DNA of 22,110 nucleotides. It comes from a virus (lineage: Duplodnaviria > Heunggongvirae > Uroviricota > Caudoviricetes). The notes under the pieces were generated by a model. That model ran no database searches. It had not been told where the DNA came from and was given only the letters and a program-made list of their open reading frames with translations. The stretch spans positions 1-22,110 of IMG/VR virus record IMGVR_UViG_2734482783_000015, one strand, 5' to 3'. Positions 1 through 19,383 of the stretch are shown in pieces. Every line of letters starts with the position of its first letter. The stretch's first letter is position 1. The translations under genes were made by a program, and so were the position numbers.

Positions 1-999
1 TCAATTATTTGCTAACGGGTTTAATTTAACTGCATCTTCCAAGTGGTCTGGGGCAAAGTGCGCATATCGCATGGTCATTTTTATATCCGTATGGCCGAGA
101 ACGCGCTGCAAGACCAAAATATTACCACCATTCATCATAAAGTGGCTGGCGAAGGTGTGGCGCAAAACGTGGGTAAGCTGTCCTGCCGGTAGTTCGATGC
201 CTGTTCTTTCCAGAGCTGACCGGAACGCGCCATAACAATCACTAAACAACCGGCCTTTTTTATTCTCAGGCAGAGACTCATAGAGTTCTTTGCTGATTGG
301 GACGGCGCGGTTTTTTCTGCCTTTCGTGTTGGTGTACGTGATTTTGTATTTCGCGAGCTGGCTTTTTCTCAGACTCTCAGCCTCAGACCACCGTGCACCA
401 GTGGCGAGACAGATTCTTACCACTGGTTCTAAATCAGGGTGGTCATGCCTTTTACACTCTCCGAGCAGTTGCGAAATCTGGTCGTGAGTTAGCCAGGCCA
501 TTTCCATTTCTTCTGTGCGGAATGGGCGCATATTTTTCAGCGGGTTCTCACCCTTCCATTCTCCGAGGCGATTTAGCTCATTGAATACCGCCCGGAAGAA
601 GGCCAGCTCAAGATTAAGCGTGCGAGGCGATACCTCTTTCACTCTGTTTGAACGGGCATACTCACCTTTTAACCGTTTTTCTCGGTAGCGGGAAAACATC
701 TGCGCATCGAAATCGCGTGCGAGTGGTTCACCCATACACTCAAAGGCATGGTGCATGGCTAACTGGCGTTTCAGGCCGTCTTTCAGTGTAATGCCATGAG
801 CGCTATACCATGAATCAACCAGCTCTTTTAACGTGCGCCTGTCTTCCTTTTCTTCCTGCCACGGGTTTTGAACAGTATATTGCTCAAACGCCAGAGCTTC
901 GCCCTTAGTAGCGAATTTCTTTCTGATTCGTTTGCCTTTTGCGCCGTTTGGGTAGAGTTCACAAATCCAACCGCCAGCCGGATTTTTACGCACGGTCAT
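1..999 (-). CDS. int: Tyrosine site-specific integrase (P2/186 Int family)
   Basis: 332-aa ORF with the C-terminal catalytic-region signature of tyrosine recombinases (…HVLRHTFASHF…LGHTDIKMTMRYAHF…). Its ATG overlaps the cI stop by 1 nt, as in 186 where cI and int are co-transcribed. Stop codon at window positions 1-3. Confidence 0.92.
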   Translation of the reverse strand: MTVRKNPAGGWICELYPNGAKGKRIRKKFATKGEALAFEQYTVQNPWQEEKEDRRTLKELVDSWYSAHGITLKDGLKRQLAMHHAFECMGEPLARDFDAQMFSRYREKRLKGEYARSNRVKEVSPRTLNLELAFFRAVFNELNRLGEWKGENPLKNMRPFRTEEMEMAWLTHDQISQLLGECKRHDHPDLEPVVRICLATGARWSEAESLRKSQLAKYKITYTNTKGRKNRAVPISKELYESLPENKKGRLFSDCYGAFRSALERTGIELPAGQLTHVLRHTFASHFMMNGGNILVLQRVLGHTDIKMTMRYAHFAPDHLEDAVKLNPLANN

Positions 1000-1574
1000 T
1001 AGTTAACCTCGCTGTATACACCCATCACGCGACCTAATGCTTTAATGTCATCAAATCCACATTCAAAGGGAACTTTGCCCCCTGCTACATGTAGTTTTCT
1101 GCCAGGCAATTTTGTTAATTCTCGAATGCTAATTGCACCTTCAATATCAACGAGCCATTCTCCATCTGAAAGGGATGCGTCTCGTTCGATGAAATGGAGT
1201 TTTCCGTCAGCGTAGACGGCAATTGGATTCGTAAGCGGCTTGCTAAAGAACTTGCCAGCAATACTCAAATCGCCATCACTAACCAGGGATTCTTCACTTA
1301 ATGTGAATTTCTCCACATTTTGGGTATCGTTATTCATGTTGCCGGTTGTAGGTGACCCTTTGCCGGTGAGTAGCCAAGCGAGATTTGCGCCAGTTTCTAG
1401 GGCGCAATGCACAATAAAGTCATAAGAAATGGAATCGCGACTGTACCTATTAGCAAGAGAGCTTGATGCAATTTCGAAGTGTCTAGCTAATTGAATTTTC
1501 TGAGAAAATCCGTAAGCCTCGCAAATCCTATCCAGCACTTCTTCATTGTTTAAACCAAGACCTTCAATTCTCAT
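999..1574 (-). CDS. cI: Immunity repressor CI (186-type)
   Basis: 191-aa ORF upstream of and translationally coupled to int, divergent from apl. The translation closely matches my recollection of coliphage 186 CI (N-terminal HTH region …DRICEAYGFSQKIQLA…, C-terminus …KLPGRKLHVAGGKVPFECG…). Confidence 0.87.
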   Translation of the reverse strand: MRIEGLGLNNEEVLDRICEAYGFSQKIQLARHFEIASSSLANRYSRDSISYDFIVHCALETGANLAWLLTGKGSPTTGNMNNDTQNVEKFTLSEESLVSDGDLSIAGKFFSKPLTNPIAVYADGKLHFIERDASLSDGEWLVDIEGAISIRELTKLPGRKLHVAGGKVPFECGFDDIKALGRVMGVYSEVN

Positions 1575-3534: not shown

Positions 3535-3816
3535 ATGGGTATTCGCATCGAAGTTGGCGACAAATGGGTTATTACCAGCGACCAATATCAATTCATCCTG
3601 AATGAAAAGAAAGTCGTTAAGTCCGGTAAAAAAGCTGGTGAAGAATGGCTCGACACTATCGGCTATTATCCGAAGATTAACCAGCTTATTTCCGGCCTGA
3701 TACACAATCAGATTCATGGCTCGGATATTACTGCCATTGATGCTATGGCAGTAGAAATTGAGCGGGTAGGGCAACTATGCATAGCAGCCATTCAAGGGGC
3801 TAGCGTTGATGCATAG
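3535..3816 (+). CDS. Hypothetical early protein
   Basis: 93-aa ORF immediately following the zinc-finger gene; its end overlaps the gene A start region. No motif recognised. Confidence 0.55.
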   Translation: MGIRIEVGDKWVITSDQYQFILNEKKVVKSGKKAGEEWLDTIGYYPKINQLISGLIHNQIHGSDITAIDAMAVEIERVGQLCIAAIQGASVDA

Positions 3817-6055
3817 CTCTATGGTTGCTTATGCTTATCCGTGGAATGCTCCACGGTCGGCAATAGCCAGCCCATATCTCACCTACGACCAACAGTATCG
3901 CCGCGACCGTATGTTCGCGGCTTTGCTGCATGCGAGAAAGGTGCTTTCTCTCCAGCCTGAGTGCGTGCGTTTTGACGTTTATCGCACCGCTGCAGTGCTG
4001 GAGCAAAATCAGGGCAGTCAACGAGCCAATGCCTTTTTAATCAGCTTCTGCAAAAAGGCATTGCCGCGTCTTGAACTGGTCGTAAAAAAATATGAGTGTG
4101 TAGGTATCAACAGCAACGTATCAGCCGCTGTTTTTGGCGGTCTTTTTGATACCCAGCTTATGCAATATCTTGCGTCACGCATGGTTAATATGGTTGCCAG
4201 ATATAACCGCCTCCCGGATATGTCGCGCGCCGATATTGACCTGCTGGCCTCTGATATCGCTAATTTCATTCGCGCTGAACTGGCTGACATTGATGACACC
4301 GGATTTAGCGAGCTTAAAACGCTGTACACCTGGTACATGCGAGCCGGTTTCATTTCCCTGCAATTCAACGTTACCCCGCCGCATTGGGAGAGGGTGACAA
4401 AGAAATATGTTGGTGAGGATGAAATAGCCCCTGCAATCACTCGCATGTTTAATGAGGTTTGGTGGCGTGGCCGATTACGACGCATTGCGGCTGCATGGCG
4501 CGAACACCTGCACATTGCCGTTGGCAACGTCAGCAAGAAAAAGCATGCTTACGCGAGTAAAAACTGCGTGACCGACTGGCGCGAGCAGAAGCGCCGCACG
4601 CGTGAATTTCTCAAGGGGCTGGATCTCGAAGACGAAGACGGCAACCGCATCAGCCTGATTGAAAAATACGATGGATCGGTCGCTAACCCTGCGATACGTC
4701 GCTGCGAGCTGATGACCCGCATCCGTGGGTTTGAAAATATCTGCAATGAGCTCGGTTATGTCGGTGAGTTTTATACCCTGACTGCGCCGTCAAAATATCA
4801 CGCCACAACTAAGGCGGGTTACCGTAACACCAAATGGAAAGGAGCCAGCCCGTCGGACACGCAAAGTTATCTCACCGGCCTTTGGGCGCGCATTCGTGCC
4901 AAACTACATCGGGAAGAAATCCGCATTTTCGGCATCCGTGTTGCCGAACCTCATCACGACGGAACGCCACACTGGCACATGCTTATGTTCATGTTGCCGG
5001 AAGACGTCGAGCGCGTGCGCCTCATCATCCGTGATTATGCGTGGGAGGAAGACCTCCACGAACTGAGAAGCGATAAAGCCAAAAAAGCGCGCTTTCATGC
5101 CGAGGCCATTGACCCGGAAAAAGGCAGCGCTACCGGCTATGTTGCTAAATACATTTCGAAAAATATCGACGGCTATGCTCTTGATGGTGAAACCGATGAC
5201 GAAAGCGGTGAGCTGCTGAAAGAGACAGCCCCCGCTGTATCAGCATGGGCGGCGCGCTGGCACATCCGTCAATTCCAGTTTATCGGCGGTGCGCCGGTGA
5301 CGGTCTACCGTGAATTGCGTCGTCTCGCCGATACCGAGACCGCGCACGGTCTGAGCGTTGAATTTGCCGCCGTCCATGATGCCGCTGACGCCGGTGACTG
5401 GGCTGGTTACGTTAATGCGCAGGGTGGCCCGTTTGTCCGTCGCGATGATTTGCAGGTGCGCACGCTTTATGAACCGCGCGCCGAGTTTAACCTGTATGGT
5501 GAGGAAACCGTCTGCATCCGTGGCGTGTACGATTCTGCTGTCGGTGCTGGTACCCCGATTTTAACCCGGCTAACGCAGTGGAAAATTGTACCGAAGCGTG
5601 CCGTTGATTTGGCCGTTGACGTTAAGGGCGCTCCTGCGCCCTCTCGGAGTTCTGTCAATAACTGTACGGGAAGCGAAAGCGATCCACCGGAACTCGATTT
5701 ATCAAAACCCCTGAATCGACGTGAAAAGCGAGAGTTAACAAACCGAATCAGGAAGCAAAAGCCAGCAATGCGGCGAAAATTCATCCACGGAACGGATGAA
5801 CAAAATGCAGCTATAGCGAAAACTATTGGCGAGATACATCTGACAACCGGCATAAATATCAGCCGGGGTGAAGCCCTGCACCTGATGGCAGGTGGTAAAA
5901 GTTGCTTTGACGGTAAATGGTTGCGAGGAACGGCCACAGGAGAAATATTTACCACGGCGCCATCACATCAGGCGAAAGTTAAGGCGTATCGGACCAAAGC
6001 TACAGAAATCCTCAATCGTGTTGCGGTTTTAGCGGAGCTAGCAACGGAAATATAA
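3809..6055 (+). CDS. A: Rolling-circle replication initiator endonuclease (P2 gpA family)
   Basis: ~748-aa ORF (ATG 3809, AAGGGG 9 nt upstream). Contains an HUH-type motif (HDGTPHWHMLMF) and a downstream tyrosine motif (YVAKYISKNIDGY), as in P2 A. Last gene of the early operon, as in P2/186. Confidence 0.92.
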   Translation: MHSSMVAYAYPWNAPRSAIASPYLTYDQQYRRDRMFAALLHARKVLSLQPECVRFDVYRTAAVLEQNQGSQRANAFLISFCKKALPRLELVVKKYECVGINSNVSAAVFGGLFDTQLMQYLASRMVNMVARYNRLPDMSRADIDLLASDIANFIRAELADIDDTGFSELKTLYTWYMRAGFISLQFNVTPPHWERVTKKYVGEDEIAPAITRMFNEVWWRGRLRRIAAAWREHLHIAVGNVSKKKHAYASKNCVTDWREQKRRTREFLKGLDLEDEDGNRISLIEKYDGSVANPAIRRCELMTRIRGFENICNELGYVGEFYTLTAPSKYHATTKAGYRNTKWKGASPSDTQSYLTGLWARIRAKLHREEIRIFGIRVAEPHHDGTPHWHMLMFMLPEDVERVRLIIRDYAWEEDLHELRSDKAKKARFHAEAIDPEKGSATGYVAKYISKNIDGYALDGETDDESGELLKETAPAVSAWAARWHIRQFQFIGGAPVTVYRELRRLADTETAHGLSVEFAAVHDAADAGDWAGYVNAQGGPFVRRDDLQVRTLYEPRAEFNLYGEETVCIRGVYDSAVGAGTPILTRLTQWKIVPKRAVDLAVDVKGAPAPSRSSVNNCTGSESDPPELDLSKPLNRREKRELTNRIRKQKPAMRRKFIHGTDEQNAAIAKTIGEIHLTTGINISRGEALHLMAGGKSCFDGKWLRGTATGEIFTTAPSHQAKVKAYRTKATEILNRVAVLAELATEI

Positions 6056-6135
6056 GCGTTAATACTCATCCATATCATGTACATACAGTGTATTTGCAAC
6101 TTTTTTTTCTTCACATTTTTTATCAATGCGTGCTA

Positions 6136-6151
6136 CTGTGTATTTATACAG
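6136..6151. promoter_or_regulatory. LexA operator (SOS box) controlling the tum promoter
   Basis: CTGTGTATTTATACAG is a perfect CTGT-N8-ACAG match with an AT-rich spacer, lying 21 bp upstream of the proposed tum start. Consistent with the LexA-repressed p95 promoter of 186. Confidence 0.8.
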
Positions 6152-6171
6152 TATCTCGTAGTGGAGGTTGT

Positions 6172-6612
6172 GTGGATAGAGAGCTAAATGAGCACGTTAT
6201 GATTGAGCGGGTCGAAATGATTGCGCGTCTGACGGCTGAAGGGACTTGTCAGGAAAGAGACCGTGAAATCGCATTGAATTTAATTGCGGAGATAGCAAGA
6301 GGCAACTTAATGAAAAACAATAATTTTTCTGTTGTTTTTTCCGCGCAGCCTGTTGATGAAACCTTTGCGAAGGAGTGCAAGGTGAGGGTAAATATCACAT
6401 TAGATAAAGACCAAATAGTCGGCCAGCCGGTGATTGATGCTTTTCAGAGTGAATTGACCAAGCGAATACAGTCAGTTTTTCCGGCAACTCGCGTTAACGT
6501 CAAGAAAGGTTCTATGACTGGTGTTGAGTTGATGGGGTTCGATAAAGATTCAGACCGCGAAGCGCTGGACGCTATTCTTCAGGAAGTTTGGGAAGATGAG
6601 AGCTGGCGGTAG
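6172..6612 (+). CDS. tum: Tum-like SOS-inducible antirepressor with DinI-like C-terminal domain
   Basis: I chose GTG 6172 (GGAGG at 6163-6167), giving 146 aa, the length I recall for 186 Tum; ATG 6199 is an alternative. The ATG 6088 start in the ORF track lies upstream of the LexA box and is rejected. The C-terminal ~80 aa (…KVRVNITLDKDQ…LTKRIQSVFP…ILQEVWEDESW) resembles DinI. Confidence 0.8.
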   Translation: MDRELNEHVMIERVEMIARLTAEGTCQERDREIALNLIAEIARGNLMKNNNFSVVFSAQPVDETFAKECKVRVNITLDKDQIVGQPVIDAFQSELTKRIQSVFPATRVNVKKGSMTGVELMGFDKDSDREALDAILQEVWEDESWR

Positions 6613-6634
6613 CTCCTCAAAAAAGTGCCAATAT

Positions 6635-6668
6635 CAACCTCATGTTTGGTAGCATGGGGTTGTTTTTT
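6635..6668 (+). terminator. Rho-independent terminator after tum
   Basis: CAACCTCATG / CATGGGGTTG stem (10 bp, one mismatch), 8-nt loop, then TTTTTT; starts 22 nt after the tum stop. Confidence 0.6.
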
Positions 6669-6691
6669 ATGGAATTACGTAAAGGAAAATC

Positions 6692-7423
6692 ATGGATACC
6701 GTAATAGCATTTTTATCTCTGGCTCTTTTTATTGCTTTTATCATTGGTCTTATCAAGCCGTCGCTGGTTAGAATGCCGAATCGTAAGCGCTCAAGCGCGG
6801 TTTACCTCGGTGGCTGTCTGGCGTTGGGCGTTATTGGCTCAATCTTATGGCCGACTGAAAAGAGTCAGCCTGTAGCGAAAAATGATGTACCGATGGTTAA
6901 AGCGGAACCGGCTACGCCAACGTTTGAGTACGCAGATAAAACCCTCAAAGAATATCGCGACGAGCTAAAAGAAACCCGGCACGAAATCGTTAAGGATTAT
7001 GTCGGTTTCAAAAGTGTACCGGTCAGCTATGTTGATGCTTTTTATGCCTGTTTGAGTGAGTACACTTTTACTAAAGATGATGCGTTAAAGCTCGATGATG
7101 TGTTGGGGTGGTGTTTCAACGACTTCGAGAAGGATCCACAATCTCTAAATAATAAAATCAACCTTGATACCTTTCAGGATAACTTTAGCGGTTGGGATGG
7201 TTCTTATCGCCCGTTAGAGAAGCTGATAAAAGCCAGCATGAATGATGATTCCTCGTATAAACATGTTTCAACGGTCTACCATCTGATTTTGAATAAAGAC
7301 CCGCATGCCGTTGTAAAAACAACGTTTCGCGGCACTAATGCTTATGGTGGAGTGGTAAAACAGACCGTAGCGGCACGCGTAAACGTGCGAACGGGTGAGG
7401 TCGATTCGATACTAGACAATTAA
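6692..7423 (+). CDS. Hypothetical membrane-anchored protein (cargo gene 1 in the tin/old-equivalent slot)
   Basis: 243-aa ORF with an AAAGGAAAA RBS. Two N-terminal hydrophobic segments (VIAFLSLALFIAFIIGLI; VYLGGCLALGVIGSILW) followed by a ~180-aa soluble domain with no recognisable motif. Lower GC than the phage backbone. Confidence 0.65.
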   Translation: MDTVIAFLSLALFIAFIIGLIKPSLVRMPNRKRSSAVYLGGCLALGVIGSILWPTEKSQPVAKNDVPMVKAEPATPTFEYADKTLKEYRDELKETRHEIVKDYVGFKSVPVSYVDAFYACLSEYTFTKDDALKLDDVLGWCFNDFEKDPQSLNNKINLDTFQDNFSGWDGSYRPLEKLIKASMNDDSSYKHVSTVYHLILNKDPHAVVKTTFRGTNAYGGVVKQTVAARVNVRTGEVDSILDN

Positions 7424-7528
7424 ACAATATAGTGACAAACGCCGCCGGTGCTGAAATTTTCAGTGCTGACGGGGTAGAACAATGAGCATCGCGAGGCGTT
7501 AGATTAAAAATCATTTGAGGCAGATAAA

Positions 7529-8191
7529 ATGCTTTGGAAAATAATATCTTTTTTACTGGTAGGTATTTGTATATTTGTTTTTGGTTTATGGCTAGGCTCT
7601 ATTCAGGCTGAATGGGCGAAACCAGAGCATAAAGATGCTGTTGCTTACTTAGCTATGATTGGAGGGTGGGTCTCAGGGATTGCAACATCAGTCGCAGTAA
7701 TTATTTCATTGTATGCAACATACCAAGCATCACAGAATAATATTGAAAAATTAAGCTTGACCTATGAACCATACCCAAGCAATGACCCTGACTTATTCTG
7801 TGCAAATATTAAAGTAAAAAATTTGCGCCCTGTTGCTGCGCATATACAAGAATTTTGCTTAGAAATTAGTGGGTTGGATGGGCAGATTAATATAAATAAA
7901 CTTAAGGCTGGCGGACTGCCAGTTAAACATGCTTTGTATCAATTAGGTGAGGTATGGGAGTTCGCATTCTATCCCCACTCAACTCATTCAAATCTAAGGT
8001 TTTATGTGGACATGAAATTGAGAGGAGAGCCAACCTTTAAAAAGGGTTTTTTTGTTGTTAAAACAACAATGAAACAGTACCGACTCAAGATGCCTAAAGA
8101 CCTTCTGGATATAATGAAAGAAAGCTATGAAAAACAAATAAAAATACCGGAAGTGTACAAGCAATATACTGGTAAAGAAATGGAACTATAA
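7529..8191 (+). CDS. Hypothetical membrane protein (cargo gene 2 in the tin/old-equivalent slot)
   Basis: 220-aa ORF with GAGG 8 nt upstream. Two N-terminal hydrophobic helices (IISFLLVGICIFVFGLWLGSI; AYLAMIGGWVSGIATSVAVIISLY) followed by a ~150-aa soluble domain. Strongly AT-rich with lysine/asparagine-rich codon usage, unlike the flanking phage genes. Confidence 0.65.
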   Translation: MLWKIISFLLVGICIFVFGLWLGSIQAEWAKPEHKDAVAYLAMIGGWVSGIATSVAVIISLYATYQASQNNIEKLSLTYEPYPSNDPDLFCANIKVKNLRPVAAHIQEFCLEISGLDGQININKLKAGGLPVKHALYQLGEVWEFAFYPHSTHSNLRFYVDMKLRGEPTFKKGFFVVKTTMKQYRLKMPKDLLDIMKESYEKQIKIPEVYKQYTGKEMEL

Positions 8192-8508: not shown

Positions 8509-9546
8509 TTACTCGTCGTCGCCGAGGCTATATTTTTCGAAGCGGATAATTTCTTCACCCGCCCATTCGTTCAACTCCATAAACCGCGCCTGTAGCGGGG
8601 TCAGCTCGTTACGCACAAAAACCTTTGCCACCTTCTCAACGTCGCCCACTGAGCCGACGTTCTCAGGTTGGCCGCCCATTAACTGGAACGGGATGCGATG
8701 CGCGTCGAGAAGGTCAGCCGCGCTGACTTTCTTGATATTAAAAAAATCATCCTTCGTGGCGACTTCGCTCAGTGGTACGATTTTAATTCCGTCTGCTTTA
8801 CCGTTCGGCGCGTAGAAAAACAGGTTCTTAAAATTGCCGAGCCCTTTCGAGTCGCGCATCGCCTTTCGCAGTGCCTCGACGTCGGTGCTGCTTTGCGCTG
8901 CGTCGGTCACATACATGATGTAACCCGCATGCGCGCCGTTCTGGTAATACTTGCGACGGAACAGGGTCGCCGATTCATTCAGCCAGGCTGAATTGAGTGC
9001 GCTCAGGTATTCCGGCATCCCGTAAAGCTCCTGATTAATATCGGGCTCGAGCAGGTGGAAGACGGAACCGGGCGCGAACTGGTGCGGCTGTGTGTAGCTC
9101 TGAATGTACCAGTAAACGTCATCCTCGATGCCACGGCGGGTGTATTTCGCCGGTGAGGTTTCCAGTTTTAACGGCTTACCGGTCAGGCTGCGACGCTCTT
9201 CGATAAACGCATTGCCAAACACCAGATAGTCGAGCGCAAACCGGGTGAAGTCCTGACGGGATAACAGCGGGTGCGGGATGTAGGTCGACACCAGAATATT
9301 ACGCTTCACGTAAATCGGTGAGCTGTGGTGCACGGCGGCGCGCATGCTCTTCGCTAGCCCGGAAAAGCTCACTGGCGGCTCGTACCACTGGCCGTTGTCG
9401 ATACACTCGACATAATCGAGAATATCGCGGCGGTCGAGTACTGGCGTCGGCTCACCAAAAGTGAATGCTTCCATGCTCTGAGCCGGTGCGGCGGTGTGGC
9501 TTTGGGTGCGCGGCGGCTGCTGGCGCTTGTTGCGTTTCTTGCTCAT
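8509..9546 (-). CDS. Q: Portal protein (P2 gpQ family)
   Basis: Minus-strand ORF of ~345 aa. I chose the ATG at 9546 because it overlaps the gpP stop by 1 nt (the ORF track starts at GTG 9555). Size and position (adjacent to cos, co-oriented with P) match P2 Q. Confidence 0.9.
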   Translation of the reverse strand: MSKKRNKRQQPPRTQSHTAAPAQSMEAFTFGEPTPVLDRRDILDYVECIDNGQWYEPPVSFSGLAKSMRAAVHHSSPIYVKRNILVSTYIPHPLLSRQDFTRFALDYLVFGNAFIEERRSLTGKPLKLETSPAKYTRRGIEDDVYWYIQSYTQPHQFAPGSVFHLLEPDINQELYGMPEYLSALNSAWLNESATLFRRKYYQNGAHAGYIMYVTDAAQSSTDVEALRKAMRDSKGLGNFKNLFFYAPNGKADGIKIVPLSEVATKDDFFNIKKVSAADLLDAHRIPFQLMGGQPENVGSVGDVEKVAKVFVRNELTPLQARFMELNEWAGEEIIRFEKYSLGDDE

Positions 9547-11315
9547 TAGTTCCACTCCATGATGCTGGATGACTGCTCACCAGTTGCGGCGGTCAGCGGC
9601 TCATTGATTAATACGTGCATGGTTGCCCAGGCGAGATCGGCGTGACTGGCTTCCTCGGTGCGACTGGCCTCATAGGTCGAGCTGCGACCACTGCTGGTCA
9701 TGGTTTTGCGGATAGACATAAACGACTGCGTGATATCGGTCGCGCTGACGTCGTACTCGAGGCAACCGCGGCGAATGGTGTCTTTTGCTTTCAGCACCAT
9801 TGCGGTTTTCATTTCCGGCGTGTAGCGGATTTCACGTGCAGCCGGGTAGAACGAGCGCACGAGCTGGAAGACGCCCTGACCGAGCCCGGTCGCATCGATG
9901 CCGATATATTCCACGGTGTATTTCTGCGTGAGCTCGCGAATGGATTCGGCCTGTTGGGCGAAGTCCATCCCTTTCCACTGGTGGCGCTCGAGGATGCGGA
10001 ATTTGCCACCGGCAACGACCGGCGGTGCGATAACGACGCACCCGGCGCTGTCACCACGTAATGACGGGTCATAGCCAACCCACACCGGGCGGTGGCCGAA
10101 TGGCCGGTCGGCAAATGGCGCGTAGTCCTCCCATTTCTCGAGGCTGTCGACCATGCAGCGCTGTAGCTCTTCGAACGGGAATACCGACGCTTTATCGTCG
10201 ACGAACTCGCACATAAACAGGTTGCGGAACTCATCGACACTGTTCTCGCGCTTCAGCGTATCGATGTTGAACAGGGTGCATCCTTTGGCGAGTGCGTCCT
10301 CGATGGTGACAATCTGTCGCCACTGGCCGTCAGGACAGGCGACGCCCTTCGCGAGAGCGGCGTGACTGATATCGATATCGACGCGCTCGCTCTTGTCTGA
10401 GCGTCCCTTGTTGAACTGCTCACCCGACCAGAACGGGTAAGCGCCGTGCGCCAGCGATGAGGGGGTCGAAAAATAGGTCGTGCGTAAATGCTCCTGTGAC
10501 GACATCCCCCCGGCGACGCGCTTCAGTTTCTGGAAGTTGGGGATCCAGAAAATTTCGTCGACATACAGGTCGCCGTTGTGACTCTGTGCCGTGTTGGCAT
10601 TGGTACCAAGAAACATCAGCTCCGCACCATTGTTGCCGAGCACAATCGGGTCGCCGGTAAGCTCGACGCCAGCCTGTCGGGCAAAGGCGATAATGTATTT
10701 ACGGAATACATAGGCTTGCGTCTTACTGGCCGACAAAAATATCTGGTTGTGGCCGGTCTTCAGCGCCTGTAACAGTGCCTCACGTGCAAAATAGAACGTC
10801 GCGCCAATCTGTCGCGATTTCAGGATGTGCCTGATGCGGTGCGCCAGCCCAGCGCGCCACCATTCGAGTTGATAGTCGAAAGACTGCTCAAGGAAAATCT
10901 CTTCGAGTTTCTCGATAGCCTCTTCGCTGAAAAAGTTCTTTTTCGGTTTCTTCTTTTCCCCTTTGTTGCGGTTGGCCACGTTCGGGTTTAAATCCGCTTC
11001 GTTGCCAGTCTGGCCGTAGCGGTTCACCCGCGCGAGGCGCTCCATCTGGCGCGCCAGAAAATCCGCGACCTTAAAGTCGTGAGCCGTCAGGTCGGGCTTT
11101 GCATAGAGCTGAATCAGCCGCGCCTCGAGCGTGAACTCGACCCGGTTTAACGGGGCGGTTTCTTCCCATTTATCGCGCAGTTTCCAGCTCTGCACCGTGG
11201 GGCGCTTGACCTGTAACTGCTCCGCGATTTGTGGCACGGAATAGCCCTGCCAGAACAAAAGCGCGGCCTGTCGTCGCGGGTCGCTGAGTAGTGATGTGTT
11301 GTTGGTAGTGGTCAT
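9546..11315 (-). CDS. P: Terminase large (ATPase) subunit (P2 gpP family)
   Basis: 589-aa minus-strand ORF (P2 gpP is ~590 aa), divergent from O, with a Walker A-like segment (SRQIGATFY). Its N-terminus (…LLFWQGYSVPQIAEQLQVKRPTVQSW…) matches what I recall of P2 gpP. Confidence 0.92.
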   Translation of the reverse strand: MTTTNNTSLLSDPRRQAALLFWQGYSVPQIAEQLQVKRPTVQSWKLRDKWEETAPLNRVEFTLEARLIQLYAKPDLTAHDFKVADFLARQMERLARVNRYGQTGNEADLNPNVANRNKGEKKKPKKNFFSEEAIEKLEEIFLEQSFDYQLEWWRAGLAHRIRHILKSRQIGATFYFAREALLQALKTGHNQIFLSASKTQAYVFRKYIIAFARQAGVELTGDPIVLGNNGAELMFLGTNANTAQSHNGDLYVDEIFWIPNFQKLKRVAGGMSSQEHLRTTYFSTPSSLAHGAYPFWSGEQFNKGRSDKSERVDIDISHAALAKGVACPDGQWRQIVTIEDALAKGCTLFNIDTLKRENSVDEFRNLFMCEFVDDKASVFPFEELQRCMVDSLEKWEDYAPFADRPFGHRPVWVGYDPSLRGDSAGCVVIAPPVVAGGKFRILERHQWKGMDFAQQAESIRELTQKYTVEYIGIDATGLGQGVFQLVRSFYPAAREIRYTPEMKTAMVLKAKDTIRRGCLEYDVSATDITQSFMSIRKTMTSSGRSSTYEASRTEEASHADLAWATMHVLINEPLTAATGEQSSSIMEWN

Positions 11316-16249: not shown

Positions 16250-16394
16250 CCCGACTACTAATGGCGACCTGAGCGCGGATATACGCCAGCTCGAAAGCGC
16301 CCTCGAGCGCTGTGCGCTTCAGGTCAGAACCGTGAAAAACTGTCAGGATAAAATCGATGTACAAGCCGAAGAGTCTGCGAAAAGCCTTAACTGA
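16104..16394 (+). CDS. o-spanin lipoprotein (Rz1 / P2 LysC-like), overlapping the i-spanin in another frame
   Basis: Start ATG 16104 gives 96 aa with a lipoprotein signal and lipobox (MKMNSFAAGIALIYLMLCAGC) and a proline-rich mature N-terminus. It begins inside the i-spanin gene and extends beyond it. Confidence 0.72.
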   Translation: MKMNSFAAGIALIYLMLCAGCTSAPPVPTPVIVYNACPKVSLCPMPGSDPTTNGDLSADIRQLESALERCALQVRTVKNCQDKIDVQAEESAKSLN

Positions 16395-16824
16395 CGCCGT
16401 GCCGGTGCTGGCACGAAACCCCGATATGATGCGTGTCTTTATCGACAACGGGAATCTGGCCTCGACGCTGGCGACGTCGCTGTCGTTTGAGAACCGGTAC
16501 ACGCTGAATGTGGTGGTGACCGATTTCACGGATGATATCGAGCTGTTACTCGTCCCGATTCAGGCGTGGCTACGCATACATCAGGCTGACATTATGACGA
16601 CCGATGAAGGGCGTAAAAAGGGATTCACCTATTTTGCCGATATCAACGACAACGACAGCGTCGATATCAGTATCAGTCTGATGCTGACCGAGCGCACTAT
16701 CGTTAAAGAACAGGGGGATAAGCTTCACGTTGAACAGGCTGAAGAGCCGCAGCCGCCGGAGCCCGTTACCCGGCCAGTTGAGCTGTATGTTAACGGTGAG
16801 CTCGTGAGTCGATTGCATGAATGA
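16357..16824 (+). CDS. R: Tail completion protein R (P2 gpR family)
   Basis: 155-aa ORF, the same length as P2 gpR, directly after the lysis cassette. Confidence 0.85.
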   Translation: MYKPKSLRKALTDAVPVLARNPDMMRVFIDNGNLASTLATSLSFENRYTLNVVVTDFTDDIELLLVPIQAWLRIHQADIMTTDEGRKKGFTYFADINDNDSVDISISLMLTERTIVKEQGDKLHVEQAEEPQPPEPVTRPVELYVNGELVSRLHE

Positions 16825-17284
16825 CTTTAAACCCTTTGACGATACGCTCACGGGGCTGATAGCGGCGCTGTCTCCTGCCGCCCGTCGCAGAATGGCCGCA
16901 GATATCGCTAAGACCCTGCGAGCCCGTCAACAGCGCCGGATTAAAATGCAGAAAGCCCCGGACGGGACACCTTACGCCGCCCGAAAACGCCAGCCGGTAA
17001 AAGCCAAAACAGGCCGGGTTAAGCGGGAAATGTTCGCTAAGCTCCGCACCAGTCGCTTTATGAAAGCCACAGCGGGGAATGACTCGGCGGTCGTGGAATT
17101 TACCGGCAAGGTACAACGGATGGCGAATGTGCATCAGTACGGTCTCAAAGATAAGCCTGGGCGAAACAGTGCGCCGGTACAGTATGACGCCCGAATGCTT
17201 ATCGGGTTTGATCATGAATCAAAAAATATGATTCATGACATAATTATGGTTTCTTTAGCTGAGGCGGCTAGATCTATTGATTGA
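16817..17284 (+). CDS. S: Tail completion / virion morphogenesis protein S (P2 gpS family)
   Basis: 155-aa ORF overlapping the R stop (ATGAATGA). The last ~20 codons and the stop lie in AT-rich DNA that continues into the downstream cargo gene. Confidence 0.85.
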   Translation: MNDFKPFDDTLTGLIAALSPAARRRMAADIAKTLRARQQRRIKMQKAPDGTPYAARKRQPVKAKTGRVKREMFAKLRTSRFMKATAGNDSAVVEFTGKVQRMANVHQYGLKDKPGRNSAPVQYDARMLIGFDHESKNMIHDIIMVSLAEAARSID

Positions 17285-17321
17285 TTTTATGTATTTTATT
17301 TTCTATACAAGTGAGGATGTT

Positions 17322-18665
17322 ATGGAAAATAAAAAATATCAAGTATTTGTGAGCTCTACATACGTCGATTTAATTGATGCTCGCAAAAAAATCATAGAAA
17401 CAGTCCTTAGTTTATACCACTTTCCAGTTGGCATGGAGATGTTTAGCGCTGATGACTCTGAGCAGTGGGATATAATAAAGGAGACTATTGATGCTAGTGA
17501 TTATTATGTGATTATCATTGGGCATAAGTATGGGTCCGTTTCTAAAGATGGTATTAGCTATACTGAAATGGAATATAACTATGCTAAATCATTAAATATA
17601 CCGGTGTTGGCTTTTATTAGAGGGAGGGACGTTTTAACAAAACCACATGAACGAGAAAGTGACCCTCAAAAAGAAAAGCAACTAAATGCTTTTATTGAAA
17701 AAGCTAAAGCTAACAAAATGTGTGATTTTTGGGAGACAATTGATGAATTAGCGACGAAGGTTGCTATCGCCTTACCAAAAGTAATGCGACGAAATCCACG
17801 AATAGGATGGGTGCGCGGTGACCAGGTCGCATCTAAAGAGATTACCGCCGAGTTGGCTGAGCTATCTAATGAAAATAGAAAATTAAGGGAAAAAGTCCGC
17901 GAATATGAAAGCCAATTACATAGCGATGCACCTCAATTAGAGCTGAGCATGATTGATAATGACTTAGCTTTGACGGTGGATGTGGAGTCGACTTATCAGG
18001 ATTACCTTCCACAACTATGCAAGGAAGCGGTACCTCTTGAGTTGAAGGACACTATCACCATTGATGAGATTGAATCATATAACTCTTCACTGCCTACTGA
18101 TAAAGATGTGGATTTATATAATAAAAAAATGAGATTGCACTGTAATTACAAAAACAATGCAATTACAGTGAAGCCCGTTTTAAGAAATAATGGGAGGACT
18201 TTTGCGTCAAATGTTTATGTTGAGATTGATTTTCCTGAATTCCTAATAGTGCTTAAAGGTTCTAATGAAGACTTCTTTATAAAAGAGCCGAAATTAAAAA
18301 TCCCTGAGTCCCCAATAAGTAAGCATAAAAAAAGACTCAGTGCTATAATGTCACTCGAAAATTTTAGGATGGGTATTTTTGATGAAACATCGATGGTAAT
18401 GGCTAAACCTCATTTGGAAGTGCCAGCAATAATTAAACGGATGGCTGATTTAGGAACAGTTAACCAAGATGAGTGGGTCATGAAAGAGGACCATAAAATC
18501 ACGTTGCGTGCGAAAAAAGTGTTACAGAGCTTAACTGTTGAGTATGAGGAAATAGTCATCATTCCCTTAACGATTGGCTCTGGAGTTATTAATTTTAAAA
18601 TTATATGTGAGCAATTGAAGGAGCCTGTTGTTTTTTCTCGTCAGGTTACAGTTACCCCAAGCTAG
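17322..18665 (+). CDS. Cargo protein with N-terminal DUF4062-like domain and uncharacterised C-terminal domain (candidate defence effector)
   Basis: AT-rich ORF between S and V. I chose ATG 17322 (GAGGA at 17313-17317), giving 447 aa; the ORF track extends to 17277. The N-terminal ~100 aa (KKYQVFVSSTYVDLIDARKKII…HFPVGMEMFSADD…DYYVIIIGHKYGS…GISYTEMEYNYA…IPVLAFI) matches the DUF4062 pattern as I remember it. A coiled-coil-like linker (ELAELSNENRKLREKVREYESQL) and ~250 aa of unknown fold follow. Confidence 0.7.
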   Translation: MENKKYQVFVSSTYVDLIDARKKIIETVLSLYHFPVGMEMFSADDSEQWDIIKETIDASDYYVIIIGHKYGSVSKDGISYTEMEYNYAKSLNIPVLAFIRGRDVLTKPHERESDPQKEKQLNAFIEKAKANKMCDFWETIDELATKVAIALPKVMRRNPRIGWVRGDQVASKEITAELAELSNENRKLREKVREYESQLHSDAPQLELSMIDNDLALTVDVESTYQDYLPQLCKEAVPLELKDTITIDEIESYNSSLPTDKDVDLYNKKMRLHCNYKNNAITVKPVLRNNGRTFASNVYVEIDFPEFLIVLKGSNEDFFIKEPKLKIPESPISKHKKRLSAIMSLENFRMGIFDETSMVMAKPHLEVPAIIKRMADLGTVNQDEWVMKEDHKITLRAKKVLQSLTVEYEEIVIIPLTIGSGVINFKIICEQLKEPVVFSRQVTVTPS

Positions 18666-18741
18666 TTTTTGTATGTTGTGCCATATCTGGTAAAACCCGC
18701 ATTAATTGCCGTCCAGAGCACCGGGCGGCATCCTTCCTTGT

Positions 18742-19383
18742 ATGAATACTCGCGCAACTCTTCAGGACGCTTTACGCCTCCTTCGCAACCTGATACGCAC
18801 CGGCGTCGTTGTCGAAGTTGACCTCGATGACGGGCGCTGTCGCGTCCAGACTGGCGGCATTGTTACCGACTGGCTTCAGTGGCTGACCACACGCGCCGGT
18901 CGTTCACGTGTCTGGTGGGCTCCGTCTGTGGGCGAGCAGGTTTTACTGCTGGCCGTGGGTGGTGAACTCGACACCGCTTTTGTGCTGCCCGGCATTTTTT
19001 CGGATGACCACCCCGCGCCGTCGGCGTCGGCTGATGCTTTTCACATCACCTTTCCTGATGGGGCTGTTATCGAGTACGAGCCGGAGACCGGCGCGCTGAC
19101 CGTGAGCGGCATTAAAACCGCAGACGTTACGGCGTCGGATTCCATCACCGCGACGGTACCGCTGGTGACGGTGAAAGCCGAGACCCGCATCACCCTCGAT
19201 ACACCGGAAGTGGTCTGCACCAACAAACTGACGACGGCGGCGCTTGAGGTACAACAAGGCGGCACCATGCGCGGAAACATCGAACACACCGACGGTACGT
19301 TTAAATCAAACGGCGTTCAGGTCGACAAACACGGTCACGGCGGTGTGCAAAAAGGTGGAGCCTGGACGGAGGGCACGAAATGA
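18742..19383 (+). CDS. V: Baseplate assembly / spike protein V (P2 gpV family)
   Basis: I chose ATG 18742 (MNT…), giving 213 aa, over the TTG 18706 start in the ORF track. Collinear with P2 gpV as I recall it (…CRVQTGG…TDWLQWLT…AGRSR…WWAPSVGEQVL…). Confidence 0.9.
   Translation: MNTRATLQDALRLLRNLIRTGVVVEVDLDDGRCRVQTGGIVTDWLQWLTTRAGRSRVWWAPSVGEQVLLLAVGGELDTAFVLPGIFSDDHPAPSASADAFHITFPDGAVIEYEPETGALTVSGIKTADVTASDSITATVPLVTVKAETRITLDTPEVVCTNKLTTAALEVQQGGTMRGNIEHTDGTFKSNGVQVDKHGHGGVQKGGAWTEGTK

What the first reader, a model, noticed from the sequence alone, without database searches (positions are those of the whole stretch)
17212..18741. AT-rich single-gene insertion between tail genes S and V encoding a DUF4062-like protein with an unassigned C-terminal domain
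The S-V junction is normally tight in this family; here it holds a ~1.4 kb AT-rich gene with its own RBS, in the same orientation as the late operon. In P2 this slot holds the AT-rich moron orf30, and I recall methylase-type cargo here in some relatives. The protein's N-terminus matches the DUF4062 pattern (FVSST…DL…R…PVGME.F.A…DYYV.IIG.KYGS…G.SYTE.EY), a domain I associate with NTP-dependent conflict/defence proteins. A coiled-coil linker and ~250 aa with no motif I recognise follow. A single-gene cargo in a prophage moron slot with a conflict-system domain fused to an unknown domain is a plausible undescribed anti-phage (abortive infection or exclusion) function.
Basis: partly seen in the sequence, partly recalled or inferred. 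Interest (0 to 1): 0.82.

Follow-up and report, generated by a model that had tools for sequence, protein, structure and literature searches.

The report
Prophage-borne DUF4062 TIR-like defence gene
A P2-like prophage carries, between tail genes S and V, a single foreign gene whose front half matches the newly described phage-triggered NAD+-destroying "Swarozyc/Evangelion" defence enzymes, while its back half is a different, uncharacterised sensor domain.

Summary
An AT-rich segment (GC 0.32-0.42 against 0.55-0.62) sits between P2-type genes S and V. It holds one 447-aa gene (17322-18665, +) with a good ribosome-binding site.

Residues 7-88 match Pfam DUF4062 (E 1.8e-28). Residues 3-209 align with the solved Swarozyc protein KpSwz (PDB 10wc; E 3e-46; 40% identity). 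That region covers the TIR-like NADase core and the helical stalk. All residues shown by mutagenesis to matter in KpSwz or Eva01 are invariant here (F9, E84, W163).

The C-terminal 240 aa are unrelated to the KpSwz winged-helix sensor (hhalign probability 0.14%). They are predicted to form an Ig-like beta-sandwich with helical insertions.

Close relatives of the prophage leave the slot empty or carry other cargo, including DUF4238, a family with a validated defence member.

The most likely function is a single-gene abortive-infection system: the AUX domain senses a phage component and activates NAD+ hydrolysis. The trigger is unknown.

The defence reading is therefore supported, but two 2026 preprints already describe DUF4062 defence. 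This is a new sensor variant of a known kind. No phenotype, enzyme activity or expression was tested.

The parts
16817..17284 (+). Gene S (tail completion / virion morphogenesis), the last gene of the P2-type O operon. Its last ~30 codons (from about 17194) are AT-rich and specific to this cargo.
   Evidence: Pfam Phage_tail_S E 6.6e-34. Divergence from the 96%-identical backbone L001 begins at about 17194.
17194..17321 (+). Left edge of the foreign segment: a replaced S 3' end plus a 37-nt spacer with the RBS GAGGA. It holds only weak promoter-like matches (TGaCATAAT at 17236-17244) and a weak hairpin at 17254-17272.
17322..18665 (+). DUF4062-AUX gene, 447 aa plus stop. It is identical to an E. 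coli protein (UniRef entry UPI0006942C6C).
17340..17816 (+). TIR-like DUF4062 NADase core (about residues 7-165). The catalytic Glu E84 codon is at 17571-17573.
   Evidence: Pfam hit. Alignment to KpSwz PDB chain 10wc_A, where the E97A mutant residue aligns with E84. Eva01 E87-Y88 aligns with E84-Y85. F9, Q48, W49, T81, E82, E84 and W163 are invariant in 73 homologues.
17817..17933 (+). Helical stalk / coiled-coil linker (about residues 166-204).
   Evidence: AF2 helix at residues 172-200. The region aligns with the KpSwz stalk up to residue ~209-212.
17934..18662 (+). AUX domain (residues 205-447): an Ig-like beta-sandwich with helical insertions and a hypervariable loop at about residues 341-380. 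Presumed sensor.
18675..18694 (+). Conserved GTTGT...(N)...AAA element at the right edge of the cargo. It corresponds in position to the annotated pV activator-binding site of P2.
   Evidence: GTTGT is invariant across five loci carrying different cargo. P2 annotation and sequence. Pattern match at 18677.
18742..19383 (+). Gene V (baseplate spike), the first gene of the V operon.
   Evidence: Pfam Phage_base_V and Phage_spike. Start position.

Best explanation
The gene is a prophage-carried, single-protein anti-phage abortive-infection system of the DUF4062 class (Swarozyc / Evangelion).

Proposed mechanism:
1. The N-terminal TIR-like domain, with catalytic E84, is held inactive in head-to-head dimers or oligomers joined through the helical stalk.
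2. The C-terminal AUX domain recognises a component or intermediate of an infecting phage.
3. [quoted passage not shown]
4. NAD+ depletion stops the infected lysogen and the phage with it.

What is shown here by sequence:
- homology of the core and stalk to KpSwz and Eva01;
- conservation of every residue that mutagenesis showed to be needed;
- cargo status in a variable slot.

What is inferred by analogy: NADase activity, autoinhibition, abortive infection, and the sensor role of AUX. The trigger is unknown. It need not be the portal, because the AUX fold differs from that of KpSwz.
For: - PDB sequence search: KpSwz chain 10wc_A aligns at residues 3-209, E 3.3e-46. The engineered E97A residue sits opposite E84.
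- 40% identity to wild-type KpSwz (P0309) over residues 1-212. Profile-profile probability is 100%, E 1e-60, over core plus stalk.
- Eva01 (WP_001808186.1) is 38% identical over residues 5-165. Equivalent residues are F11=F9, Q50W51=Q48W49, E87Y88=E84Y85 and W162=W163. All of these are invariant in 73 homologues.
- The preprints report loss of defence for KpSwz E97A and for the AUX deletion, and for Eva01 F11A, E87A, W162A and the AUX truncation. They also report NAD+ depletion and culture collapse at high MOI.
- Cargo behaviour: 15 complete E. coli genomes carry the identical arrangement. About 32 have 96%-identical flanks with a different gene. Others carry DUF4238 plus an 8xMP membrane protein, or nothing. 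A DUF4238 protein is a validated anti-T7 defence (PMC9122126).
- The core is conserved while AUX diverges (74% against 29% identity) and contains an indel-rich loop.
- The AUX domain also occurs behind other N-terminal modules: HetE-N in P0177, and a membrane-spanning N-terminus in P0191. This fits a portable sensor.
- Homologues at 57-59% identity occupy the same S-V slot in Klebsiella and other P2-like prophages. One lies in an Aliivibrio cassette array.
Against: - No phenotype, enzyme activity or expression was measured here.
- PADLOC-DB v2.0.0 (2023) has no model that hits the protein.
- No convincing sigma-70 promoter lies upstream (best 8/12), and no clear terminator separates it from S. 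Expression in the lysogen, which defence requires, is therefore unproven. It could be transcribed only with the late O operon.
- One tested Evangelion lineage (Eva02) and divergent Eva01 homologues gave no protection, and three of four human DUF4062 proteins had no NADase activity. DUF4062 alone does not guarantee the function.
- Both supporting papers are preprints.
Confidence: 0.75

Rival explanations
1. It is an orthodox Swarozyc system: the AUX domain, despite its different fold, also binds phage portal rings, and the portal activates the NADase.
For: Core plus stalk are 40% identical to KpSwz, which is portal-activated. A beta-sandwich is a plausible protein-binding module.
Against: The KpSwz AUX domain is an HTH/winged-helix domain of about 115 aa. 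The AUX here is about 240 aa and beta-rich, with no sequence or profile similarity (E 0.42, probability 0.14%). Eva01, with a third type of AUX, points to replication/recombination functions instead. The carrier is itself a portal-containing P2-like phage, so a general portal sensor would risk self-triggering (inference).
Confidence: 0.12
2. It serves the prophage's own lytic cycle rather than defence of the lysogen. It would be expressed by read-through from the late O operon, for example to manipulate host NAD+ metabolism or to exclude co-infecting phages or satellites late in infection.
For: It has the same orientation as the late operon, lies only 37 nt after S, has no clear promoter of its own, and no strong terminator follows S. 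The homologues in L004 and L005 are arranged the same way.
Against: The slot is empty in several functional relatives, and closely related backbones hold unrelated genes, some on the opposite strand, so the gene is dispensable for morphogenesis. The same protein family occurs outside phages, in a cassette array and on plasmids. An unregulated NADase during the phage's own late phase would cut its burst (inference).
Confidence: 0.08
3. The TIR-like domain is not a simple NAD+ hydrolase here. It might make a signalling nucleotide or act as a nucleoside 2-deoxyribosyltransferase-like enzyme, or the protein might be catalytically inert.
For: DUF4062 shows distant similarity to both TIR and NDT families. 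NWD1, NWD2 and NPHP3 were inactive in vitro.
Against: The closest characterised relatives (KpSwz at 40%, Eva01 at 38%) cause NAD+ loss. KpSwz yields only ADP-ribose and nicotinamide. The catalytic E-Y motif is invariant. No partner effector gene lies in the slot.
Confidence: 0.05

Closest known systems
Swarozyc (KpSwz, K. pneumoniae; PDB 10wc/11cq/11cv; bioRxiv 10.64898/2026.05.01.722283)
   Same: Single gene. N-terminal DUF4062 TIR-like core with the catalytic Glu, the W of the GW(V/I)R motif, and a helical stalk. 40% identity over residues 1-212, hhalign probability 100%. Carried on a mobile element: KpSwz lies next to AlpA and DUF5906 genes, which looks like a P4-type satellite.
   Different: KpSwz is 325 aa with a ~115-aa HTH/winged-helix AUX domain that binds the Bas14 portal. 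The window protein is 447 aa with a ~240-aa beta-sandwich AUX and no detectable homology to that domain. It sits in a different genomic niche, the S-V slot of the helper-type phage. It is not one of the five accessions tested.
Evangelion Eva01 (S. aureus pMW2; bioRxiv 10.64898/2026.06.25.731849)
   Same: Single-gene DUF4062 core plus AUX. 38% identity over the core, with identical SYTEMEY and QW motifs. F11, E87 and W162 equivalents are present.
   Different: Eva01 has a short AUX domain (the protein is about 180-220 aa), is plasmid-borne in Gram-positives, and its escapers map to recombination genes. No stalk-plus-beta-sandwich region is present.
P2 orf30 and the other P2 morons (old, tin, Z/fun)
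   Same: Same physical slot as orf30: after the O-operon terminator and before the pV activator site. AT-rich and non-essential.
   Different: orf30 is a 261-aa protein on the opposite strand with no Pfam or PADLOC hit, and is unrelated in sequence. The published P2 defence hotspots are gpA-portal, Z/fun and tail-cI. Only a coarse 'downstream of GpL' hotspot covers this region.
Human TEP1 DUF4062 domain (vault NADase)
   Same: Same Pfam domain and the same catalytic-Glu logic.
   Different: TEP1 is a eukaryotic multidomain protein (TROVE-DUF4062-NACHT-WD40). It was not compared directly here.

Membership tests
DUF4062 (PF13271) TIR-like NADase superfamily | Profile match above Pfam's gathering score | tested here: met
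   99 bits against a 24.7 cut-off, E 1.8e-28, full profile 1-82.
DUF4062 (PF13271) TIR-like NADase superfamily | Catalytic Glu in the acidic-SYT / E-Y motif, the N-terminal aromatic residue, and the Q/W motif | tested here: met
   E84 lies opposite the E97A position of KpSwz and opposite E87 of Eva01. F9, Q48, W49, E84 and W163 are invariant in 73 homologues.
DUF4062 (PF13271) TIR-like NADase superfamily | NAD+ hydrolysis to ADP-ribose plus nicotinamide | not testable with these tools
   Biochemical assay needed.
Swarozyc (sensu KpSwz) | DUF4062 core followed by an intertwining helical stalk | tested here: met
   Alignment runs through residue ~209-212. Predicted helix at residues 172-200.
Swarozyc (sensu KpSwz) | C-terminal HTH/winged-helix AUX domain homologous to the KpSwz AUX | tested here: not met
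   BLASTP finds nothing after residue 212. The AUX profile does not hit the KpSwz chain at E<=10. hhalign probability 0.14%. The predicted fold is a beta-sandwich.
Swarozyc (sensu KpSwz) | Activation by phage portal; abortive infection | not testable with these tools
   Needs a phage challenge, escaper mapping and co-expression.
Evangelion (broad definition: single-gene DUF4062 core plus diversified AUX required for defence) | Single gene with a conserved core and a divergent C-terminal auxiliary region, on a mobile element | tested here: met
   One ORF in the slot. Core identity 74% against AUX 29%. Prophage cargo.
Evangelion (broad definition: single-gene DUF4062 core plus diversified AUX required for defence) | Demonstrated anti-phage activity that depends on both core and AUX | not testable with these tools
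   No experiment was possible. The identity of the tested E. coli lineage Eva03 could not be retrieved.
Known defence systems in PADLOC-DB v2.0.0 | HMM hit to any defence protein model | tested here: not met
   0 families at E<=1. The library predates the DUF4062 reports.

The most novel reading that the evidence does not exclude
The ~240-aa beta-sandwich AUX domain is a previously uncharacterised, portable phage-sensing module. It recognises a trigger different from the portal (Swarozyc) and from recombination intermediates (Eva01), and it can be wired to several cell-killing effectors: DUF4062 NADase, HetE-N, and a membrane-spanning N-terminus. In addition, the S-V (orf30) gap would be a fourth defence hotspot of P2-like phages. 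In this hotspot, cassettes are swapped by recombination between the 3' end of S and the pV activator site.
Probability: 0.45. Interest if true: 0.55.

Novelty: new variant of a known kind. Interest (0 to 1): 0.4.

Why it matters
DUF4062 was recognised as an immune NADase only in 2026. Just two sensor types have been studied: a winged-helix domain that binds the portal, and a short AUX domain linked to recombination.

This protein represents a large subfamily with a third sensor architecture. The AUX profile finds at least 744 clusters at 50% identity, spread across Enterobacterales, Vibrionaceae and even a Priestia plasmid.

Finding its trigger would show how one effector scaffold is re-targeted. 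It would also show how a P2-type prophage avoids setting off its own defence.

The locus also documents the S-V gap as an exchangeable cargo site. That is useful for guilt-by-association discovery: the alternative cargos there are unannotated.

Tried and rejected
- **Library scans.** PADLOC (2023) and NCBIfam gave no meaningful hit for the protein. PHROGs only returned families of unknown function: phrog_9489 over the full length and phrog_15411 over the N-terminal half.
- **Foldseek, full model against PDB.** This library stops at 2026-04-08 and so lacks KpSwz. The hits were generic beta-sandwiches with low TM-scores.
- **afdb50.** Not installed.
- **BFVD search of the AUX model.** Only generic DUF11/Ig-like matches.
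- **AUX profile against PDB sequences.** Nothing apart from a chance integrin match.
- **Promoter/terminator scan.** Counts were no higher than in shuffled sequence. There is no convincing promoter, and only a weak hairpin inside the end of S.
- **Phage collection.** tblastn found no close homologue in deposited phage genomes, only a distant Acinetobacter phage match. Evidence for prophage carriage therefore rests on bacterial genomes.
- **Identity of Eva03 and the tested E. coli Swarozyc.** Supplements for the Evangelion preprint are not held, and no accession appears in the text. The Swarozyc accessions differ from the UniRef identifier of the window protein.
- **Short AUX-profile hits.** I first took these for new architectures. 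Most proved to be N-terminally truncated DUF4062 proteins. Only P0177 and P0191/P0212 stand as alternative fusions.
- **Catalytic residue.** I first assigned E82 from numbering alone. The PDB alignment shows it is E84.

Full report
**1. The observation**

The window is a P2/186-like prophage. It encodes an integrase (1-999, minus strand), a CI repressor (999-1574, minus strand), gpA (3806-6055), a portal (8509-9555, minus strand), terminase, capsid and lysis genes, then R (16357-16824), S (16817-17284) and V (18742-19383).

Between S and V lies one long ORF. From the ATG at 17322 to the stop at 18665 it encodes 447 aa. GAGGA sits 5-9 nt upstream, and homologues begin at the same methionine. 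An upstream TTG at 17277 would give the 462-aa form that one Salmonella record annotates.

GC content drops to 0.32-0.42 over 17200-18600, against 0.55-0.62 on either side.

**2. The slot**

In the annotated P2 reference, S is followed by the putative rho-independent terminator of the O operon. Next comes the non-essential orf30 on the opposite strand, then the activator-binding site of the pV promoter, then V. The S-V junction is therefore a gap between two late operons.

The gap is 66-68 bp and empty in Wphi, BIS20 and pro147. It is occupied in other relatives:
- P2 carries orf30.
- Klebsiella phage ST147-VIM1phi7.1 carries a 347-aa protein with a weak LmuA match (E 2e-6).
- Prophages close to the one in the window also carry cargo (below).

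Among 5,426 complete E. coli genomes:
- 15 carry this exact arrangement at 99% identity or more.
- About 32 have flanks 96% identical but a different gene, a 361-aa protein with no hit on the minus strand.
- Another backbone holds a DUF4238 protein plus an 8xMP/RipA membrane protein. A DUF4238 protein from a P2 hotspot is a validated anti-T7 defence (PMC9122126).

Alignment of the junctions places the left break at about 17194, inside the last ~30 codons of S. Each cargo therefore brings its own S C-terminus. The right break lies immediately before a GTTGT-containing element (18675-18694). That element is conserved whatever the cargo, and it matches the position and half-site of the P2 pV activator site.

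**3. The protein**

*Core and stalk.* Residues 7-88 match PF13271 DUF4062 (E 1.8e-28).

The PDB sequence library contains KpSwz (10wc, 11cq, 11cv). It aligns with residues 3-209 at E 3.3e-46. The alanine of the deposited E97A mutant falls opposite E84.

I recovered wild-type KpSwz as P0309 (325 aa). It is 40% identical over residues 1-212, and nothing aligns after that. Profile-profile comparison of the two families gives probability 100% (E 1e-60) for core plus stalk.

I read Eva01 from a pMW2-like plasmid (WP_001808186.1). It is 38% identical over residues 5-165. The equivalences are F11=F9, Q50-W51=Q48-W49, E87-Y88=E84-Y85 and G161-W162=G162-W163. All of these residues are invariant in an alignment of 73 homologues.

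*AUX domain.* The AlphaFold2 model (pLDDT 82) shows an alpha/beta core, a long helix at residues 172-200 and a beta-rich C-terminal domain. Modelled alone, the C-terminal 250 residues give pLDDT 85 and pTM 0.70.

It has no detectable relationship to the winged-helix AUX of KpSwz. The AUX profile does not find the KpSwz chain even at E<=10, and hhalign gives probability 0.14%.

**4. The family**

The full-length architecture is common. A search found 1,234 proteins at E<=1e-3, many of 440-470 aa and 40-62% identical.

A profile of the AUX domain alone finds 744 clusters (50% identity) in 1.84 billion representatives. Among the 150 best hits listed, AUX nearly always lies at about residues 200-450 of a protein of about 440-480 aa. 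Every one of those hits that I scanned and that had an intact N-terminus, apart from the two fusions below, carried DUF4062.

Two exceptions are informative, and they make AUX look like a portable module behind different effectors:
- P0177 is a complete 371-aa gene with a HetE-N domain in front of AUX.
- P0191 and P0212 place AUX behind a membrane-spanning or otherwise unknown N-terminus.

Across the homologues, the core is 74% identical to the window protein on average, the stalk 53% and AUX 29%. An indel-rich loop with low pLDDT lies at residues 341-380.

Homologues at 57-59% identity sit in the same S-V slot of Klebsiella and other P2-like prophages. An Aliivibrio homologue lies in an array of small genes, mostly acetyltransferases, separated by ~130-nt repeats, which looks like a chromosomal integron. 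A Priestia plasmid carries a full-length 41%-identical copy.

**5. Mechanism**

The two preprints report the following.
- KpSwz is an autoinhibited TIR-like NADase. Binding of its AUX domain to a phage portal ring activates it. It depletes NAD+ and causes abortive infection. E97 and AUX are required.
- Eva01 needs F11, E87, W162 and its AUX region. It lowers NAD+ and blocks phage genome accumulation. Escapers map to recombination genes.

The window protein shares core, stalk and every one of these residues. I therefore infer the same output, NAD+ hydrolysis leading to abortive infection, and the same logic: AUX senses, the stalk transmits, the TIR-like domains re-arrange.

The trigger cannot be inferred. 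The different fold argues against simply assuming the portal. A sensor carried by a P2-type phage must also tolerate that phage's own proteins (inference).

Expression in the lysogen is unproven. The best upstream promoter match is 8/12, with a possible extended -10 at 17236-17244. The hairpin at 17254-17272 is weak.

**6. Comparison and novelty**

By the broad Evangelion definition (a single-gene DUF4062 core plus a diversified AUX), the protein is a member of a known kind. By the narrower Swarozyc definition, it fails on the AUX domain.

It is not one of the five Swarozyc accessions tested. The identity of Evangelion's E. coli lineage Eva03 could not be established from the text held.

Published P2 defence hotspots are gpA-portal, Z/fun and tail-cI. 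One 2026 preprint notes a coarse hotspot 'downstream of GpL', within the late genes. I found no explicit description of the S-V gap as a defence site.

**Verdict:** this is a real feature and very probably a defence gene. The effector is known, the sensor is uncharacterised and the trigger is unknown. It is a new variant of a known kind, of moderate interest.

Noticed in passing
L001:2473-3558 (-), L003:1870-3928, L014:1152-2195: Closely related P2-like prophages hold other cargo in the same S-V gap. One has a 361-aa protein with no Pfam or PADLOC hit on the opposite strand. Another has a DUF4238 protein plus an 8xMP/RipA octameric membrane protein. A third has a 347-aa protein with a weak LmuA match. 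The gap behaves like an unlisted defence hotspot.
   Followed up: partly
window 17194-17284: The left recombination junction lies inside gene S. The last ~30 codons of S are AT-rich and differ with each cargo, so cassettes seem to carry their own S C-terminus.
   Followed up: partly
window 6088-8191: A second AT-rich island (GC 0.37-0.45) sits in the classical gpA-portal (old/tin) hotspot. It holds a 174-aa ORF with a DinI-like C-terminus and two ORFs (243 and 220 aa) with no Pfam or PADLOC hit. These are possible further cargo or defence candidates.
   Followed up: partly
P0177 (L017:267-1382); P0191, P0212: The same AUX domain is fused to a HetE-N domain (complete 371-aa gene) or to a 400-aa N-terminus with predicted membrane helices, in place of DUF4062.
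   Followed up: partly
L006:5854-7470: The Aliivibrio homologue is bracketed by members of ~130-nt repeat families within an array of small genes, mostly acetyltransferases. The gene appears to be a chromosomal integron cassette there.
   Followed up: partly
L011:1-12978: KpSwz itself lies beside an AAA ATPase plus S8 peptidase pair and next to AlpA and DUF5906 genes, which looks like a P4-type satellite. DUF4062 variants may thus be carried by both a satellite type and a helper-phage type.
   Followed up: no
L010 (NZ_CP051374.1 88768-100108): A Salmonella record labelled a 194-kb linear, non-mobilizable 'plasmid' carries a P2-like prophage with a 96%-identical DUF4062 gene in the S-V slot. 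The record may be a mis-assigned chromosomal fragment.
   Followed up: no
window residues 253-258, 289-295, 429-431 of the protein (nt ~18078-18095, 18186-18206, 18606-18614): Within the otherwise fast-evolving AUX domain, a few motifs are invariant or nearly so: YN..LP, NxG...A, and a C-terminal ICEE. Their role is unexplained; they could be structural or an autoinhibitory contact.
   Followed up: no
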